Origin: Candidatus Latescibacterota bacterium
GTDB taxonomy: Bacteria; Latescibacterota; UBA2968
Direction: 5' to 3'
Assembly (NCBI GenBank): GCA_965116885.1
Contig: OZ220741.1
Span: forward strand, 480,001-544,000
DNA: 64,000 bases
This document shows positions 29,701-41,700 of this stretch, one piece after another. The position numbers are program-made. Numbering within the stretch: position 1 is the first letter of the stretch; each line of letters begins with the position of its first letter.

Positions 29701-32700
29701 CTCTGGACCCCATAGAATGCACCAGATAGTACGCCGTATTCACCCCTTCCAGAGCAACCCTCAGCGAATCCCGATCCAGCACATCCCCTGCGACAATCTC
29801 GGTATCGGAACAAAACCGACCCATCAGATACTGGGGATTGCGAGCCAGACACCGCACGCGCGCGCCCCTCTCTTCAAGCGCCGGAACCAGCCGCCCCCCA
29901 ACATACCCACTGGCCCCCGTCACCAGCACGAGCTTGTCTTTTTCCCTATCAGACATTGCTTTACCCGCGTCATAAGAGTGGAATATTGAAAGTTTATCTA
30001 TGTGGACGCCTCAATAGACAAAAGCGTTTCGATTATAGCACCTTCTGAAACGCATTCTGCAGGTACAGATTCAGGCGTTTTGGATCAAAAGGCAATATAT
30101 ACCAAAAAATTGAAAAAGGAGATAAACTAATATTTTATTGTAGATAAATTATTGATATATATTGCTATAGTCTAAAATTGTGACATGATAAAAAAATAAA
30201 TAATATTTATAACCCAATGATAAAATAGAAATTTAAACGAAAAATTGCTTGACATTCCAATAAATATAATCTTATCATTTCTATAAATTTTACAAATAGA
30301 AGTTTAGCCTACAGCAGTGAGCCAGTCTATCAAAACCAAAAGGAGGGCAGACATTGAAGCTACTCAAAGTATTGACAATGTGCGGGCTAATGTGTCTCGC
30401 TTTCAATAGCAAAGCCCAGGAGGCACATGCCCAGGACAAGACCCAATGGCGGCTGGGTTTGGGAGGATATTGGAGCCTCAACGTGCCATTAATGGGTCTG
30501 AGAGATCGGGTCACCGATGCCGGGAAGATAGGGGGAACACTCAGCTATGTGATGTCCCCCAGAACGATCATGGAATTGGAGTGCTATTACGCCAAGTTTA
30601 ACAACGGAAAGCTCGAGGACCTGGAATTTGTCTGGCCGGTAGATGGCAATTCCTATGGCAGCCCTCAAGCGCTATCGGAGATGACACTCAAAAGTGCCAT
30701 CTTGAACTTGGTGTTGCACTCATCCAGCGATCGCGCCTTCACGCGCGGTGGTATTTCTCCCTATCTCGCTTTCGGCGTCGGATTTTACGACTACGATTTT
30801 TACAATGAAAATCTGGTCTTTGGCGCGCAGACCTCACCGCCGCTCGACACAACCCTCGTCCTTCACCCCTTCAGCGATACGCGCACGGCCTTGAGTTTCA
30901 ACCTCGGCCTTGGTGCTCAAGCCTTCATTATCGAAAACTGGGCATTGGATGTGCGGGCGCGGTACAACATGATGATAGGCGAACTGCGCGAGGTCGTACA
31001 ATACAACATCGGACACACATTTCCGATCCAGCTATTCGATATAAATGCGGGAATAAAATTCTATTTCAAATAGTAAGGAGGTCTTGATGAATCAGCCCAA
31101 ATCAGTTGTACTTTCTGTATTCGCGACCGGGCTATTGACCTTTGTGCTGGGTTTAATGCTATCCGGACCCGTCCTGGCGGGAACAACGGGCAAAATAACC
31201 GGTCAGGTCCTGGACCCAGACGGCAGCCCCCTCCCCGGATCAAACCTGGTTATTGAGGGTACGCAGCGGGGGGCAACAGCCGACGCGGAAGGAAATTACG
31301 TCATCCTGCTCGTGGAACCGGGAATGTACACAATGACGGCAAGCCTGGTCGGCTACACACCTCGGACCAAGACGCAGGTGCGAGTAAATGCAGACTTTAC
31401 CACGACCGTAAATTTCACGCTACCGCCAACAGTATTAGAAATGGAAGTCCTGACCGTAGTGGCGGAGCGGCCCCCAGTGGAGCCAGACAAAACATCCAGC
31501 AAATATGTCATCGACGCCAGTGATATTGAGGCACTCCCCCTGATTCGAGGCTTCGACGATCTGATTGAGCTTCAGGCAGGGGTCTCGAACGACGGACGGC
31601 AGCGGATCCGAGGAGGCGATACATACGAGGCCGGAGATGTCACCTACTACCTGGATGGCATCAAGATTGTCAACAACGACACCGGCTGGGACAGGTCTCG
31701 CTACTTCCAGGGATTCAACAACAGCGCCATCCAGGAACTAACGGTTGTGACCGGCGGTATGGAAGCCGAATACGGCAACGCACAGGGCGGCGTCATCAAT
31801 ATCGTAACCAAATCGGGCGGAAAGGACATAGGGGGGCGGCTCGAATACCGTTTTACGCCATCTACCCAAAGGCACTGGGGAGATAATGTATATGACTCTC
31901 CAGTGCATCGAGACCGCATGAAATTCGACGACATTGAATGGGTAAACGAAATTGATCCCCTGACCGGCCGCCTCGTCCACCAGAGGACAAACTACTCAGA
32001 GGTCTCAGGACATTTTGTGGAAGGAAATCTCTCTGGGCCCATCGGTGGAAAAGCCTCCTTCTTCGCCAGTTCGCGCTACAACCTCCAGCCAGCCACAATT
32101 CCAGGCCCGGAGGACACCTCGCCGCCAAACACCCATAATATTGGCAAACTGACCTTCGATATTTCGCCCAACATCAGGGGTACCGCTGGCGGCTTCTATG
32201 CCAGAGCCAGAGGATTCAACAACGGGGGCGAGGGCACTGTGCGGAACATGTCGAACAGTGGGCGAAATATCTTCCTGCCTTCGGGTGTGTCCGGAGCGGG
32301 AGAGTGGATCGAACAGGACAACCTGTTATACGCCACCCTGACCCATTCCCTGACGCCCAAGATGTTTTACGAAGTCCGCATTTTCCGCTCTGAAAGCAAG
32401 CGCGACTCCTCGGGGGTACCATCGCTGGAGGACGTTCGTAATACAGGTCCAGAATTCCGCGACAAAGACAACTGGTTTTACATCCGTCCGCGGCCAACTG
32501 TCAGCGTCCGGATCGGCAACCAAAAGCGCGTTGGCATCAAATTCGATCTCTCTAATCAGGTGACCCGAGGCCACTTCATCAAAACTGGCTTCGAAGCAAC
32601 CTTCTACGACACCTGGGGCACGCGCGTCATTAAAACCACGGAGAACTCGCGACGGATCCTCTTTGTGGGAAAAGCCCATCAGATGGGCGAAGGCGTTACG

Positions 32701-38700: not shown

Positions 38701-41700
38701 TTCACAAAAGACGGCCATGCAGTGGCTCTTCGAAGGGCTACCCGAAGGAATCGCGATTCCATGGGATGTGTGGATCGTACCCCTCCTCTGGTGGTCCTGC
38801 CTGATTGCTGCGATGACACTCGGATCGATCTGTCTTGCAGTGGTCCTGCGGCGCCAGTGGTCGGAGCACGAGCGTCTGATCTACCCAATGCTGATGCCAG
38901 CACTCGCCATCACAGAAAGCGATGACCGGCTTCCCGACATCCTGAGACATCGCATCTTTTGGATAGGTGCCGCACTCGCCTTTGTCGCGGTCTCCTGGAA
39001 CATCGGGTCGTTTTTCTCACCGCTATTCCCCGCCATCCCGCAAAGCCTGGGGAATCTCGCGCTCGGAGGTGGACTGCCCTCCATTCCACTTCGCCTGAAC
39101 TTTTTCCTGATGGGATTCACCTATTTTGCCAATGTGGAAGTCCTGGGTAGTTTCTGGGTCTTTCTTTTATTTTTTTTAGGCCAAGTATGGGTCTTTAACC
39201 GCGTGGGATTCGACATTGGACCAAATGGCGATCTGTGGTCGTCACACCACTCGGCTTATAGCTGGCAGGGAATGGGCGCTATGACGGCTTTCGTCGGATG
39301 GGGTTTGTGGACGGGACGCCACCACATAAGGAGCGTTATAGCGACGGCCTTTGCCACACGAGAAAGGCTGGATGATCGAGGGGAAATGGTCTCCTACCGA
39401 ACCGCATTCTGGGGACTTGTCCTCAGTGCCATTTTCATCGTGGGATGGCTGCACTACGCCGGAATGGAGCTATCGGTAGTCTGGCTCTTCCTATTTGCGA
39501 CACTTGTGATTCACCTGGGAGTCGCCCGCATCGTGGCAGAGTCGGGCCTCATCTCCGTAAGGGGACCAATGACGGCACAATCGTTCTGTTTCTACAGCCT
39601 GGGATCCGCATCCGTTGCCCAGAGCAGTATGACCGTTTTGGGATTCTCTTATGCCCTGCTCTCTCACGGACAAGGACTCTTTCTGCCCGCACTCGTTCAC
39701 GCTGTGAAACTCACAGATATCGTCCGGGCAAACAGGCGGCGAATGCTTCTCGCACTGCTGGGAGCACTCATTGTGGGAACACTAATTTCTCTCGTCTATA
39801 CCCTGCACCTCGGATACAGTCTGGGTGCTTACAACTTCAACCCCCTGGGTCCCTTCTCCAGCGGCCCCCGACGGCTCCTGGGAAAAGTAGTGGGCAAGAT
39901 GGGAAACCCCTTCCCGCCCAGCACCTGGAAAATCACCTTCTTCTGGCTCGGAATCGCCATCATGTCAGCCCTGCTATTTCTGCGCTACCGCTTTCCGTGG
40001 TGGCCCATCAACCCCATTGGGTTCCCGATATCTGGAACCTCGCTAATACGGATATCCGCTCTGCCCATCTTCATCGTCTGGACCATCAAGATCATCGTAC
40101 TCCGCACCGGAGGTGCTCTGCTCTATCGCCGGATTGCGCCCTTCTTCATAGGACTGACTGTAGGGCATGCAATAGCTGTGGGCGTATCGGCAATCGTAGA
40201 TATCATCTGGTTCAACGGACGCGGGCACATGATCTACACCTGGTAAAAAAACGACCTAATGCATATCTACGGACAGCACATAACTCAGCAGAGTCACCAA
40301 AAGCCACGTCCCCACCAGCACAACCCCAAAAGGACGTTTCATCGCATTGCCCGACACAAAAATACCGCAGCGGAAAACAACGAGAATAAACACCATTGCC
40401 GGAAACAAAAATTGGAAAAACTGACCATCGGCTTGCAAGCCACCTGGTGTTGCTGCAGCCGAGACACCGGCGACAAAAAACACATTGAGAATATCTGCGC
40501 CAATAATATTGCCAACAGCCAGTTCGCCGTGCCCGCGTCTAACAGCGGTAATCGCCGTCACGAGTTCGGGGAGCGACGTGCCAAACGCGACCAGCGTAGC
40601 CGAAATAATGTGTTTTGGCACGCCAATTCTCTCTGCCAAAATACTCACACTGGGAATGAGAATTTGAGCCGAAATAACAATAACCGCAATCGCCAGGAGC
40701 AACTTGATGAGCACGAGGCCCGCGTTACTCTCCTCCGCACCGGTTGCATCTTCCTGCTCAGTATCCGACGTAGCTGCAGCCCAGCGGATCGACTGCCAAA
40801 TATAGAGCACCAAAAGTACCACAAAAGCGAACCCAACGAACTGCGGCAAAACCCCACCCTGGGTAAACAATTTCGCGGGAGAAGCCCACGGGAAACAGGC
40901 GAGCACCAGAAGAACACCAGCCCCCACCTGCACATTTGACAACCGCGACGCCAACTGGCGATTGAGAGGTAAAGGAGCGATCAGAGAAGCCAGGCCGATA
41001 ATAAGACCCGTATCGCAAATAATCGAACCGACAGCATTCCCAAGCGCAAGCCCTGGTTTCCCCTGAATCGCCGAAAACACGGACACCGCCGCTTCCGGCG
41101 TCGTCGTGCCAATACTCACAATCGTCGCACCGATAACCGCTTTACCCAGCCCCCAGCGCACCGAAAGCGTCACAGCCTCATCGACGAGCCAATCCGCGCC
41201 TTTGCCGAGCGTGTACAGCGTCACCGCAATAATCACAAGCAGGAACGGACTGGCCAATCCCATCACAAGCTCTTCAATCCACTTTTCCATCTTCTGCCTT
41301 TCCGAAGGCAACGATCAATGACACACGGGACGGCACAGGGGCCGTCCCCTACAATACCATAGCCTAACCCTGCATGTTTTAAGCAGGACCGCGATGGAGG
41401 CTCTACAGCGCATGATTAGCTACTCGCTAAATCACAAAAATATCACTTGGACGATCCTGCTCAGCCACACTCAGGGGAAAAGACCGAACACCTTGACTCT
41501 GCAACATATCCGCGCAAGTTTCTCGCGCCAGCTCCGGCCGGTTATTTTTCTCACTCAAATGCGCCAAAACCGCCTGTTTCAAACCCTCTCGCGCCAGATC
41601 GCACAACGCCTCGGCCGCCCCATCATTTGACAAATGACCGTGCGTACTATTGATCCTCTGCTTCAAAACCCAGGGATAAGGCCCATCCATAAGCAATTGA

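What a model noticed while it worked through the whole genome (the two positions that open the first line are those of the whole stretch)
30354..40246. SusD-less glycan-uptake cassettes: SusC-like TBDT + T9SS-CTD sandwich protein + its own PorV/PorQ-like barrel (13 copies [...]
The genome holds 13 co-oriented cassettes of a SusC-like TonB-dependent transporter (CarboxypepD_reg+Plug, ~1000-1100 aa), an unannotated secreted 690-1040-aa protein, and a private PorV/PorQ-family barrel, usually preceded by a ~240-aa OMP and often followed by a DUF6785 inner-membrane transporter; only one canonical SusC/SusD pair exists. The unannotated protein has a carbohydrate-enzyme-type beta-supersandwich, an FN3-like domain and a type IX secretion C-terminal domain that is predicted to dock on the neighbouring PorV-like barrel. 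I propose that it is a T9SS-exported, PorQ/PorZ-style barrel-anchored surface glycan binder that takes the place of the SusD lipoprotein in these PUL-like lo [...]
Evidence so far: Paralogue clustering and gene order: TBDT-X-PorV at g00191-189, g00386-384, g00451-453, g00609-607, g01426-424, g01762-760, g01974-976, g02067-065, g03876-878, g04129-127, g04171-169, g04198-200, g04267-265, plus orphan X-PorV g01978-979. All 14 X proteins have signal peptides and one shared C-terminal ~90-aa motif; no Pfam/NCBIfam/Swiss-Prot row. AF2 model of g00452 (pLDDT 68, pTM 0.72, call 39): residues ~40-500 match the N-terminal supersandwich of glucoamylase 1lf6 Z 16.6 (231 aa, 3.3 A) and GH94/GH65/GH15 enzymes; residues 652-758 match the PorZ CTD 5m11 Z 10.5, 26% id. 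Complex prediction g00453 + g00452(505-758): ipSAE 0.91 vs best control 0.00 (mark reached by 116/157 solved, 2/215 mi [...]
(Added by a program. Inside this text positions count along the whole contig: contig position 480,001 is position 1 of the stretch shown here. "Call 12" and the like, gene names such as g00115 and contig names such as C1 are that model's own, and its searches are not shown. The text may have been shortened before it was handed on; [...] marks where a part breaks off. The agent that wrote the report below was given it as the finding of a first reader that could run no searches.)

Follow-up and report, generated by a model that had tools for sequence, protein, structure and literature searches.

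The report
TonB transporter with PorV-tethered surface partner
An uncultured Latescibacterota genome carries 13 copies of a conserved, unstudied outer-membrane gene set (an importer, a secreted protein and that protein's own small anchor barrel) that probably captures nutrients much as the SusC/SusD pair does in Bacteroides, but is built from type IX secretion parts.

Summary
The window encodes, on one strand, a small OMP, a TonB-dependent transporter (TBDT), an unannotated 758-aa secreted protein (X), a PorV/PorQ-family barrel, a PhyH dioxygenase and a DUF6785 membrane protein. The genome holds 13 TBDT-X-PorV triplets plus one orphan X-PorV pair.

The order TBDT-X-PorV recurs in 70 of 75 related loci from Latescibacterota, Gemmatimonadota, KSB1, Marinimicrobia and Ignavibacteria. 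The three genes diverge together. PorV-family gene counts track X counts about 1:1 within the genus.

X ends in a divergent type IX secretion tail. This tail scores best against the tails of PorZ and PorU, the two cargoes known to stay docked on PorQ and PorV.

My best reading (about 50%) is a nutrient-uptake module whose surface partner is tethered by an uncleaved tail to its private barrel.

- "SusC-like": 0 of 13 cassette TBDTs pass the SusC/RagA model.
- "Glycan": the local gene context is not a polysaccharide locus.

SprA is present, but canonical GldM, GldL and GldK were not detected.

I found no paper describing this. The scan has noted the same kind of cassette before on other DNA (16 findings).

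The parts
30249..30278 (+). Sigma-70-like promoter match (TTGACA-18-TATCAT, 11 of 12) about 75 nt upstream of the first cassette gene
   Evidence: This is a consensus match only. Eleven such sites were found in the region against 7.1 expected from shuffles.
30354..31073 (+). Small outer-membrane beta-barrel protein (239 aa), the first gene of the cassette
   Evidence: PF13505 OMP_b-brl at 36.7 bits, cut-off 28.7. Paralogues precede 8 of 13 cassettes. An OMP lies on the same strand in 65 of 75 related loci. It is not related to the PorV-like barrel (hhalign probability 8.8%).
31084..34191 (+). TonB-dependent transporter (1035 aa): signal peptide, CarboxypepD_reg N-terminal extension, TonB-box-like EVLTVVA at residue 121, plug, and a divergent barrel
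   Evidence: PF13620 at 70.2 bits and PF07715 Plug at 32.9 bits. TIGR04056 gives only 56 bits against a cut-off of 368, over residues 37-256. A TonB-box-like motif is present in 12 of 13 paralogues. The only PDB sequence hits are carboxypeptidase regulatory domains.
34231..36507 (+). X: secreted 758-aa protein with signal peptide, N-terminal domain (residues ~35-500; nt 34231-35724 including the signal peptide), FN3-like domain (501-612; nt 35731-36066), linker with a conserved GLESG motif (613-660) and a C-terminal tail (661-758; nt 36211-36504)
   Evidence: No Pfam family. The FN3 region matches 3mpc at E 0.004. The tail matches the PorZ tail at E 5.7e-5 and TIGR04183 at 13.6 bits, below the cut-off of 23. 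85 homologues were found, all unnamed. The tail is the best-kept part among paralogues: 36% identity against 24% for the N-domain.
36540..37481 (+). PorV/PorQ-family outer-membrane barrel (313 aa from GTG 36540), private partner of X
   Evidence: NF033709 at 184.5 bits, cut-off 90. The PorQ model gives 72.5 and the PorV model 70.5, both below their equivalog cut-offs. The PDB hit is 6h3i_F PorV at E 2.9e-8. A Shine-Dalgarno-like AAAGGAGG lies upstream, and the gap after the X stop codon is 32 nt.
37502..38260 (+). PhyH-family Fe(II)/2-oxoglutarate dioxygenase (252 aa), with a close paralogue at 28242-29027
   Evidence: PF05721 at 104.8 bits. The paralogue scores 513 bits by phmmer. Whether this gene belongs to the module is uncertain, because a PhyH-like ORF occurs in only 5 of 75 related loci.
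38270..40246 (+). DUF6785+DUF6784 polytopic membrane protein (658 aa), a candidate inner-membrane transporter
   Evidence: PF20581 at 364.9 bits and PF20580 at 75.8 bits. It lies downstream on the same strand in 55 of 75 related loci. The genome holds 40 paralogues. The transporter role is inferred. The nearest named Atlas clusters are peptide/OPT transporters at 0.79, which is a lead only.

Best explanation
The cassette encodes an outer-membrane nutrient-uptake module.

Proposed mechanism:
1. X is exported by Sec and then across the outer membrane through the SprA translocon, by means of its type IX-type C-terminal domain.
2. That domain is not cut off. It stays docked on the barrel encoded next to it, as PorZ stays on PorQ and PorU on PorV.
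3. X is therefore held on the cell surface beside the TonB-dependent transporter of the same operon.
4. The variable N-terminal domain of X captures, or perhaps processes, a substrate, and the transporter imports it using TonB.
5. DUF6785 may carry the substrate across the inner membrane.
6. The 13 paralogous cassettes would serve different substrates.

Shown here: the gene set, its conservation, the family assignments, and the presence of SprA and a PorU-like protein.

Inferred: surface anchoring, retention of the tail, contact between X and the transporter, direction of transport, and the substrate. The substrate of the window copy is unknown.
For: Conserved unit:
- A TBDT lies directly upstream of X in 72 of 75 related loci and a PorV-like gene downstream in 72 of 75; both are present in 70. 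Two loci on each side lack the DNA to tell, and one lacks the gene.
- These loci come from records labelled Latescibacterota, Gemmatimonadota, KSB1, Neomarinimicrobiota, Melioribacteraceae and Ignavibacteriales.
- Pairwise-identity matrices of TBDT, X and barrel correlate: Spearman 0.66-0.80 among the 13 own cassettes and 0.81-0.84 among 31 cassettes.
- Gaps between the cassette genes are short. The X-to-barrel gap is under 60 nt in all 14 pairs, and the window has a Shine-Dalgarno-like motif before the barrel gene.

One barrel per X:
- In 16 genomes of the genus, PorV-family matches = 1.06 x X matches + 4.1, r = 0.97. These genomes are kin and not independent.
- A 3,787-bp duplication at 98.1% identity carries exactly X plus its barrel.
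- Only 1 of 12 canonical type A tail proteins in the genome lies near a PorV-family gene, against 14 of 14 X proteins.

Nature of the tail:
- 12 of 14 X tails give weak type IX-tail hits: PorZ tail in 10 of 14 (best E 4.5e-7), PorU tail in 6 of 14, TIGR04183 in 10 of 14.
- Distant relatives of the X core carry canonical Por_Secre_tail in 12 of 14 long proteins, 10 of them at or over the cut-off.
- A review states that PorU and PorZ keep their tails bound to PorV and PorQ, and that type B cargo cluster with cognate PorP/SprF barrels (PMC10202324, passages read).

Export route:
- SprA scores 633.7 bits against a cut-off of 200, and a PorU-like protein scores 334 bits.

Importer features:
- Plug domain, TonB-box-like motif in 12 of 13, and an N-terminal extension.

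Diversification:
- The N-domain is the least conserved part of X: 24% identity against 36% for the tail.

RNA libraries:
- Contigs from all 4 RNA-library runs laid (4 studies) lie on pieces of the TBDT, X, barrel and PhyH genes at 95% likeness or more. This is weak, because contigs from RNA libraries may hold DNA.
Against:
- Every type IX-tail score for X is below the curated cut-offs (best TIGR04183 22.0 against 23), and 2 of 14 tails gave no tail-family hit.
- The canonical motor and ring were not detected: GldM_1st none, GldL none, GldK only generic FGE-sulfatase hits of 101.7 bits or less against 350.
- GldM (TIGR03517) was found in 0 of 61 Latescibacterota genomes. The same model found it in 8 of 31 genomes of another phylum. 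How anything passes SprA here is therefore unknown.
- No full-length PorZ was found.
- The cassette barrels are not cleanly separated from the four non-cassette PorV-family genes in a tree, though one clade is not rejected (p-AU 0.238).
- 35 Latescibacterota genomes without an X match still hold a median of 7 PorV-family matches, so many such barrels have other uses or other partners.
- Gene context gives no clear substrate.
Confidence: 0.5

Rival explanations
1. Dedicated shuttle. The PorV-like barrel is only a private export helper that collects X at the SprA translocon, as PorV does for ordinary cargo. X is then cleaved by the PorU-like sortase and released or lipid-anchored. Once free, it acts as a binder or enzyme whose products the neighbouring transporter imports.
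For: - The barrel belongs to the PorV/PorQ family. PorV is described as a shuttle (PMC10202324).
- A PorU-like protein with a peptidase region is present (334 bits).
- Relatives of the X core carry canonical, presumably cleavable, tails together with BNR or beta-helix domains typical of secreted glycan-active proteins.
Against: - A catalytic shuttle would not need one gene copy per cargo. Here the ratio is 1:1: 14 of 14 pairs, slope 1.06.
- The pair duplicates as a unit.
- A separate, better PorV candidate exists at contig 5709-6770 (NF033710 161 bits against 70.5 for the cassette barrel).
- X tails score better against the retained tails of PorZ and PorU than against the type A model.
Confidence: 0.22
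2. Self-contained export unit. The TonB-dependent barrel exports X, as Oar exports PopC in Myxococcus, and the PorV-like barrel receives and holds it. On this reading the cassette displays a surface protein and imports nothing.
For: - A TBDT can export a protein (PMC6434023, abstract seen in the listing).
- The canonical GldM motor was found in 0 of 37 genomes that hold an X-domain match. SprA-mediated export therefore has no recognised energy source here, whereas TonB could supply one.
- Each X has its own TBDT.
Against: - Twelve canonical tail proteins in this genome have no TBDT beside them, yet presumably are exported.
- SprA is kept in 59 of 61 genomes of the phylum.
- The orphan X-barrel pair has no TBDT of its own.
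- A candidate inner-membrane transporter follows in 55 of 75 loci, and catabolic genes sit nearby. Both fit import.
- A 22-strand barrel is narrow for a 750-aa folded beta-protein. This last point rests on general knowledge, not a call.
Confidence: 0.07
3. X is specifically a glycan binder that sits as a lid on the transporter in place of SusD, and the 13 cassettes are polysaccharide utilisation loci without SusD.
For: - Relatives of the X core are fused to BNR/sialidase-like propellers (5 of 14 long relatives) and to pectate-lyase-type beta-helices (7 of 14).
- Some neighbours of cassettes are sugar-related: UxuA, PfkB, GH4, GH127, sulfatase and MFS_2 in this genome; CBM9 and GxGYxYP elsewhere.
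- Earlier scan notes place similar cassettes in laminarin and alginate loci. These are unchecked AI notes.
Against: - No cassette in this genome is flanked by a dense set of glycoside hydrolases or lyases.
- Around the window copy lie PhyH dioxygenases, aminotransferases and a ceramidase-like gene.
- A ceramidase-like ORF recurs in 15 of 75 related loci, with GDPD and SSF symporters in Marinimicrobia.
- The nearest named look-alikes of DUF6785 are peptide/OPT transporters (0.79, lead only).
- The TBDTs fail the SusC/RagA model.
- X is not a lipoprotein and has no SusD family hit.
- A lid position was never tested.
Confidence: 0.2

Closest known systems
SusC/SusD (RagA/RagB) pairs and utilisomes of Bacteroidota
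   Same: A TonB-dependent transporter with a CarboxypepD_reg-type N-terminal extension is encoded next to a surface-exposed partner. There are many paralogous copies per genome. (PMC7618045, abstract seen in the listing.)
   Different: The partner is not a lipoprotein and is not a SusD fold family member by sequence. The transporter fails TIGR04056. A third gene, the PorV-family barrel, and usually a fourth, the small OMP, are obligatory. No CAZyme cluster is attached.
PorQ-PorZ and PorV-PorU pairs of the type IX attachment complex
   Same: A cargo protein keeps its C-terminal domain and stays docked on a PorV/PorQ-family barrel (PMC10202324). X tails score best against the PorZ and PorU tails.
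   Different: X is not PorZ or PorU: no full-length PorZ match was found. The barrel passes only the broad family model, not the PorV or PorQ equivalogs. There are 14 pairs per genome, each joined to a transporter gene.
Type B CTD cargo with cognate PorP/SprF-like barrels (for example SprB/SprF)
   Same: Cargo and its own small barrel are encoded side by side. The barrel is proposed to anchor the uncleaved cargo (PMC10202324).
   Different: The barrel family differs: PorV/PorQ, not PorP/SprF (TIGR03519 gave only weak hits to non-cassette barrels). The tail gives only sub-threshold CHU_C hits, in 6 of 14. No link to a transporter is described for type B cargo in the passages I read.
Slam / type XI secretion loci of Proteobacteria (Slam, TbpB-type cargo, TonB-dependent receptor)
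   Same: A dedicated outer-membrane barrel puts a partner protein on the surface. That partner serves as co-receptor for a TonB-dependent receptor encoded nearby (PMC8406197, passages read).
   Different: The protein families are unrelated (DUF560 barrel, TbpBBD cargo, mostly lipoproteins), the phyla differ, and the cargo serves metal uptake.
Oar, the TonB-dependent transporter that exports PopC in Myxococcus xanthus
   Same: A TBDT with a CarboxypepD_reg-type N-terminus is linked functionally to a secreted protein (PMC6434023, abstract in the listing). The domain architecture of Oar is recalled, not tested.
   Different: No PorV-like barrel or type IX-type tail is involved there. The direction of transport here is unknown.

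Membership tests
SusC/RagA family (TIGR04056) | Full-length match over the curated cut-off of 368.25 bits | tested here: not met
   Window TBDT: 56 bits over residues 37-256 only. The other 12 cassette TBDTs score 97 bits or less or have no hit. The genome's one true SusC scores 536.5 bits.
SusD/RagB | SusD-family domain and a lipoprotein signal | tested here: not met
   X has no Pfam family and no lipobox in any of 14 paralogues. The only SusD_RagB hit in the genome is at contig 399604-399936.
Polysaccharide utilisation locus | SusC/SusD pair with co-located carbohydrate-active enzymes | tested here: not met
   There is no SusD, and no dense CAZyme set among 99 flanking ORFs of the 13 cassettes. 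Only scattered sugar-related genes were seen.
TonB-dependent transporter | Plug domain, TonB box and a 22-strand barrel | tested here: inconclusive
   Plug PF07715 at 32.9 bits, over the cut-off of 23.9. A TonB-box-like motif is present in 12 of 13; the consensus is recalled. No Pfam barrel model matched the window copy, while several paralogues match barrel parts of the TIGR01785/01786 models below cut-off. The strand number could not be tested.
PorV/PorQ family (NF033709) | Match over the curated cut-off of 90 bits | tested here: met
   184.5 bits over positions 2-323 of 326. The PDB PorV 6h3i_F matches at E 2.9e-8.
PorV proper (NF033710) or PorQ proper (NF033711) | Equivalog cut-offs of 250 and 220 bits | tested here: not met
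   70.5 and 72.5 bits. The best PorV candidate of the genome lies elsewhere, at contig 5709-6770, with 161.4 bits, also below the cut-off.
Type IX secretion type A C-terminal domain (TIGR04183 / PF18962) | Match over cut-off (23 / 27 bits) at the extreme C-terminus | tested here: not met
   10 of 14 X tails hit TIGR04183, all below the cut-off (best 22.0). 6 of 14 hit PF18962 at E 0.022-0.23. The motif layout (PNPF, G-x-Y, basic last residues) resembles type A by eye; that comparison is recalled.
Type IX secretion type B C-terminal domain (PF13585 CHU_C) | Match over the cut-off of 27 bits, with a cognate PorP/SprF barrel | tested here: not met
   6 of 14 tails hit, with a best score of 23.2 bits. 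The neighbouring barrel is of the PorV/PorQ family, not PorP/SprF.
Type IX secretion system (whole machine) | SprA/Sov translocon | tested here: met
   TIGR04189 at 633.7 bits, cut-off 200, on a 2081-aa ORF. It is present in 59 of 61 genomes of the phylum sample.
Type IX secretion system (whole machine) | GldL/GldM (PorL/PorM) motor and GldK/GldN ring | tested here: not met
   PF12081: none. TIGR03513: none. TIGR03525: 101.7 bits or less against 350. TIGR03517: 0 of 61 in the phylum and 0 of 5 other cassette genomes, with a positive control of 8 of 31 elsewhere. GldN was not tested by me. Divergent forms cannot be excluded.

The most novel reading that the evidence does not exclude
Lineages of the FCB group outside the classical Bacteroidia use a type IX-type C-terminal domain as a permanent plug-in anchor rather than as a disposable export signal. 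Each uptake transporter gets its own surface partner, docked on its own PorV-like barrel. This forms a multi-barrel uptake machine that is the functional counterpart of SusCD and of Slam/TbpB/TbpA. The system works in genomes that keep SprA but have no recognisable GldLM motor, so export through SprA there must be powered differently. One possibility is the same TonB/ExbBD machinery that drives the transporter.
Probability: 0.3. Interest if true: 0.85.

Novelty: new variant of a known kind. Interest (0 to 1): 0.62.

Why it matters
If the reading is right, several abundant but uncultured phyla capture nutrients with an outer-membrane machine that has not been described. These phyla include Latescibacterota, Marinimicrobia, Gemmatimonadota, KSB1 and Ignavibacteria.

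Three consequences would follow:
- It would explain why these genomes hold many PorV-family barrels and many SusD-less transporters.
- It would give the large unnamed X family (686 clusters at 50% identity) a role.
- It would widen the known uses of type IX secretion tails from export signals to permanent anchors.

The finding that SprA is kept without a detectable GldM across a whole phylum also makes the question of how type IX export is powered outside Bacteroidia directly testable.

Tried and rejected
- **Structure prediction (alignment A2):** I have no model, no fold search and no check of the supersandwich, FN3 or CTD folds.
- **Complex prediction (barrel 21-313 with X 505-758):** queue full or not sent on, and 'no usable answer'. 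It never ran, so there is no result of any kind on docking.
- **TBDT with X N-domain complex:** not attempted, because the chains exceed the 1000-residue limit.
- **The search for related loci with A2:** failed because the alignment was too divergent. Repeated with the closer alignment A3.
- **PDB profile search with X:** only an FN3-like hit.
- **PDB search with DUF6785:** nothing.
- **Pfam at E up to 10 on 14 DUF6785 proteins:** no OPT hit, so the OPT/peptide-transporter likeness (Atlas 0.79) stays a lead.
- **Search for a gldKLMN operon beside the best GldK-like hit:** none seen.
- **RNA-library contigs:** no contig lay on the OMP or DUF6785 genes. Contigs cannot show absence or transcript ends.
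- **Tree of PorV-family barrels:** it does not resolve whether the cassette barrels are one clade.
- **Context of canonical-tail relatives of the X core:** only L102 and L107/L108 had usable flanks, and none had a PorV-like or TBDT gene. The sample is too small to carry weight.
- **Profile comparison of the small OMP with the PorV-like barrel:** unrelated.
- **Literature:** searches found no paper on a transporter/tailed-protein/PorV-like cassette. DUF6785 appears in 0 papers. Subscription journals and preprint supplements were not searchable.

Full report
**What is in the window.**

Six co-oriented ORFs lie on the + strand between 30354 and 40246:
- A 239-aa OMP_b-brl protein.
- A 1035-aa TonB-dependent transporter (TBDT) with CarboxypepD_reg and Plug domains.
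- A 758-aa protein, X, with no Pfam family.
- A PorV/PorQ-family barrel (NF033709 at 184.5 bits, cut-off 90).
- A PhyH dioxygenase.
- A DUF6785+DUF6784 membrane protein.

The long ORF for the barrel overlaps the end of X. An in-frame GTG at 36540, preceded by AAAGGAGG, gives a 313-aa protein with a signal peptide, in line with its paralogues. A near-consensus sigma-70-like promoter match lies about 75 nt upstream of the OMP gene, and no convincing terminator lies inside the cassette. These are pattern matches only.

**Copy number.**

The window belongs to a 5.56-Mb single-contig genome, 98.4% complete. I called ORFs and searched with phmmer and an iterated HMM. Results:
- 13 TBDTs of this type at 179 bits or more; the next best scores 50.9.
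- 14 PorV-like barrels at 89 bits or more.
- 8 small OMPs.
- 40 DUF6785 proteins.
- 15 X hits. One of these (contig 817583-821161, 1192 aa) aligns only through FN3 repeats and is not a family member.

Gene order gives 13 co-oriented TBDT-X-barrel triplets and one orphan X-barrel pair. The OMP precedes 8 of the 13 triplets. A DUF6785 gene lies within 6 kb of the barrel in 6 of 13.

The orphan pair is a 3,787-bp copy, 98.1% identical, of exactly the X and barrel genes of the cassette at contig 210-218 kb.

The genome has a single SusD_RagB hit (the Bacteroides thetaiotaomicron control rang). It sits beside the only TBDT that passes the SusC/RagA model, at 536.5 bits.

**Conservation elsewhere.**

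X has 85 homologues in the 5.8-billion-protein collection. All are unnamed, and the few labelled ones come from Gemmatimonadota, KSB1 and Latescibacteria. A scan of one genome per species returned 75 loci from records labelled Latescibacterota, Gemmatimonadota, KSB1, Neomarinimicrobiota, Melioribacteraceae and Ignavibacteriales, plus a few odd labels. The closest, at 94-95% identity, are Latescibacterota MAGs, which places the window's genome.

Scanning these loci with HMMs built from the window genome's paralogues gave these counts:

| Feature | Loci of 75 |
|---|---|
| TBDT directly upstream of X | 72 |
| PorV-like gene downstream of X | 72 |
| Both | 70 |
| Small OMP on the same strand | 65 |
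| DUF6785 downstream | 55 |

For each of the first two rows, two further loci lack the DNA to tell and one lacks the gene.

In Ignavibacteria the OMP lies between X and the barrel, so the set is kept but not its exact order.

The three core genes diverge together. Pairwise-identity matrices correlate at Spearman 0.66-0.80 among the 13 own cassettes and at 0.81-0.84 among 31 cassettes from several phyla.

In an X tree the window genome's paralogues interleave with sequences from other phyla, with full support in several places. The subfamilies are therefore old or have moved between phyla.

**Distribution within the phylum.**

In a sample of 61 Latescibacterota genomes, the X N-domain occurs in 26. 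It is concentrated in the window's family (19 of 19) and order, and was not found in several other families.

PorV-family genes occur in all 61 genomes, at 4 to 28 matches each. Within the window's genus (16 genomes) barrel matches follow X matches with slope 1.06, intercept 4.1 and r 0.97. These genomes are kin, so the statistic overstates the case. Even so, one extra barrel per extra X is what a stoichiometric partner predicts.

Thirty-five genomes without an X match still hold a median of 7 PorV-family matches. Other partners, or other uses, of such barrels must therefore exist.

**What X is.**

All 14 paralogues begin with a signal-peptide-like segment and none has a lipobox.

The region 501-612 is FN3-like (PDB 3mpc, E 0.004).

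The last ~100 residues carry the shared motif (VRVVPNPF ... RFVNLP ... IFS.SGDL ... SGIYF..V.S ... G.F.II-basic). Scanned alone, the 14 tails gave weak but one-directional hits:

| Model | Tails hit (of 14) | Notes |
|---|---|---|
| PorZ C-terminus | 10 | best E 4.5e-7 |
| PorU C-terminus | 6 | |
| TIGR04183 type A sorting domain | 10 | all below cut-off; best 22.0 against 23 |
| CHU_C | 6 | |
| Por_Secre_tail | 6 | |

Two tails hit none of these.

The tail is therefore a divergent type IX-type domain that fails every curated threshold. Its best matches are the two cargoes whose tails are known to be kept and to bind PorQ and PorV (PMC10202324, passages read).

The tail is also the best-conserved part of X among paralogues, at 36% mean identity against 24% for the N-domain.

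A profile of the N-domain found 686 representative proteins at E 0.001 or better among 1.84 billion. I scanned 14 long relatives (1057-1533 aa) against Pfam:
- 12 carry Por_Secre_tail, 10 of them at or above the cut-off.
- 5 also carry BNR/sortilin-type propellers.
- 7 carry pectate-lyase-type beta-helix domains.
- 1 carries an RCC1 propeller.

This ties the X core to type IX cargo, and loosely to glycan-active proteins.

**The barrel.**

It passes only the broad PorV/PorQ family model. It scores about equally, and below cut-off, against PorV (70.5 bits) and PorQ (72.5 bits).

The genome has four further PorV-family genes:
- The best PorV candidate, at contig 5709-6770 (NF033710 at 161 bits), lies two genes from a canonical-tail M6-like protein.
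- Two resemble PorQ or PorV2.
- One is BamG-like.

Only that one of the 12 canonical type A tail proteins lies near a PorV-family gene, whereas all 14 X proteins do.

A tree does not separate cassette barrels from the other four cleanly. One clade is not rejected (p-AU 0.238).

The small OMP is unrelated to the barrel.

**The transporter.**

It has the N-terminal extension, a TonB-box-like E-[LIV]-x-V-[VI]-A motif just after it (12 of 13 paralogues; the consensus is recalled) and a plug. None of the 13 passes the SusC/RagA model. Only the first ~200 positions match. "SusC-like" therefore holds for the N-terminal architecture only.

**State of type IX secretion.**

- SprA is present at 633.7 bits, and so is a 1905-aa PorU-like protein at 334 bits, below its cut-off of 420.
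- I found no GldM, no GldL, no specific GldK and no full-length PorZ.
- The GldM model found nothing in 61 Latescibacterota genomes, nor in five cassette-bearing genomes of other phyla.
- As a positive control, the same model found GldM in 8 of 31 genomes of the phylum that holds the Melioribacteraceae locus.
- In that sample, 7 genomes had an X-domain match and none of them had GldM. Several of those X matches are weak and partial.
- SprA is present in 59 of 61 Latescibacterota genomes and in 4 of the 5 others.

These lineages therefore keep the translocon, PorV-family barrels, a PorU-like protein and tailed cargo without a recognisable motor. [quoted passage not shown]

**Substrate.**

I scanned 99 ORFs flanking the 13 cassettes. 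There is no dense CAZyme cluster. The neighbours are a mix of:
- Sugar-catabolism genes: UxuA, PfkB, GFO/IDH/MocA, GH4, a GH127 fragment, a sulfatase, and SSF and MFS_2 carriers.
- TPR/HEAT/multihaem proteins, next to 3 cassettes.
- TPR or GWxTD-like proteins.
- PhyH.
- Unrelated housekeeping genes.

In other phyla the neighbours of the closest cassettes are:
- A ~450-aa ceramidase-like protein, in 15 of 75 loci and at window 46757-48103.
- GDPD.
- SSF symporters.
- Small canonical-tail proteins.
- CBM9, GxGYxYP and PhyH.

The nearest named look-alikes of DUF6785 are peptide/OPT transporters at 0.79. This is a lead that sequence searches did not confirm.

The substrate of the window copy is therefore open, and "glycan" is not shown.

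**Presence in RNA libraries.**

Eight RNA runs hold small shares of the stretch. In the four runs I laid, from four studies, short contigs at 95% likeness or more lie on parts of the TBDT, X, barrel and PhyH genes. Contigs from RNA libraries may contain DNA and cannot show transcript structure, so this is a weak sign of expression in close relatives.

**Reading.**

The evidence fits best a module in which X is exported through SprA, keeps its tail, and is held by its private barrel beside the transporter that imports what X captures.

The one-to-one gene ratio, the pair-wise duplication and the PorZ/PorU-like tail favour a permanent anchor over a catalytic shuttle.

The DUF6785 link and the catabolic neighbours favour import over an Oar-like export role for the transporter (PMC6434023, abstract only).

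None of the physical contacts is shown.

The closest analogues by logic are:
- SusC/SusD.
- PorQ-PorZ.
- Type B cargo with PorP/SprF.
- In Proteobacteria, Slam with TbpB-type cargo and a TonB-dependent receptor (PMC8406197, passages read).

**Novelty.**

Six full-text searches found no description of a TBDT/tailed-protein/PorV-like cassette. DUF6785 occurs in no paper held. Subscription journals and preprint supplements were not searchable.

This scan has noted the same kind of cassette 16 times in other genomes, though none by sequence likeness to this X. Those are unchecked AI notes and not independent support.

I rate this a new variant of known kinds (co-receptor-assisted TonB uptake, and cognate-barrel anchoring of type IX cargo) rather than a new category.

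Noticed in passing
window 42222-44525 (- strand): A single 768-aa ORF joins an apolipoprotein N-acyltransferase (LNT_N and CN_hydrolase domains) to a full TatC domain (residues 541-751). This is an unusual Lnt-TatC fusion.
   Followed up: no
whole genome; window 28242-29027 and 37502-38260: The genome holds 40 DUF6785 paralogues and 55 PhyH-like ORFs at E 1e-3 or better (41 at 1e-5). Two close PhyH copies (513 bits to each other) flank the window cassette. Only 4 of 40 DUF6785 genes have a PhyH-like ORF within 3 kb.
   Followed up: partly
window 46757-48103 (- strand); L032-L035, L041, L065, L076-L079, L081, L082, L089, L090, L092: A ~450-aa protein matching only the N-terminal part of the neutral/alkaline ceramidase family recurs next to these cassettes. 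It occurs in 15 of 75 related loci from at least three phyla, and in 11 copies in this genome.
   Followed up: partly
contig 210027-213810 and 2281554-2285340 (L001:5027-8810, L007:13554-17340): A 3,787-bp segmental duplication at 98.1% identity carries exactly one X gene and its PorV-like barrel. The copy lies beside another cassette and a sigma-54 activator gene.
   Followed up: yes
L001:14681-17494, L008:7344-9179, L010:3438-5645: Large proteins that combine multihaem cytochrome c motifs with HEAT and TPR repeats lie next to 3 of the 13 cassettes.
   Followed up: no
L012:12724-14100; 16 of 75 related loci: A GWxTD-domain protein follows the PorV-like gene in one cassette type. TPR-rich relatives flank two other cassettes in this genome.
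   Followed up: partly
phylum sample G001-G060: SprA passes its cut-off in 59 of 61 Latescibacterota genomes, while the GldM model matches none. The same model matched 8 of 31 genomes in another FCB phylum.
   Followed up: partly
L046, L048, L049, L080, L087: X genes from records labelled Gemmatimonadota and Latescibacterota are almost identical to each other (tree branches 0.01-0.13). This suggests inconsistent phylum labels among public MAGs rather than gene transfer.
   Followed up: no
L065:2787-3812, L077:2793-3782, L085:973-1974: In Marinimicrobia cassettes a small (~330 aa) protein with a canonical Por_Secre_tail sits between the OMP and the TBDT genes. Those cassettes therefore encode two tailed proteins of different tail type.
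   Followed up: no
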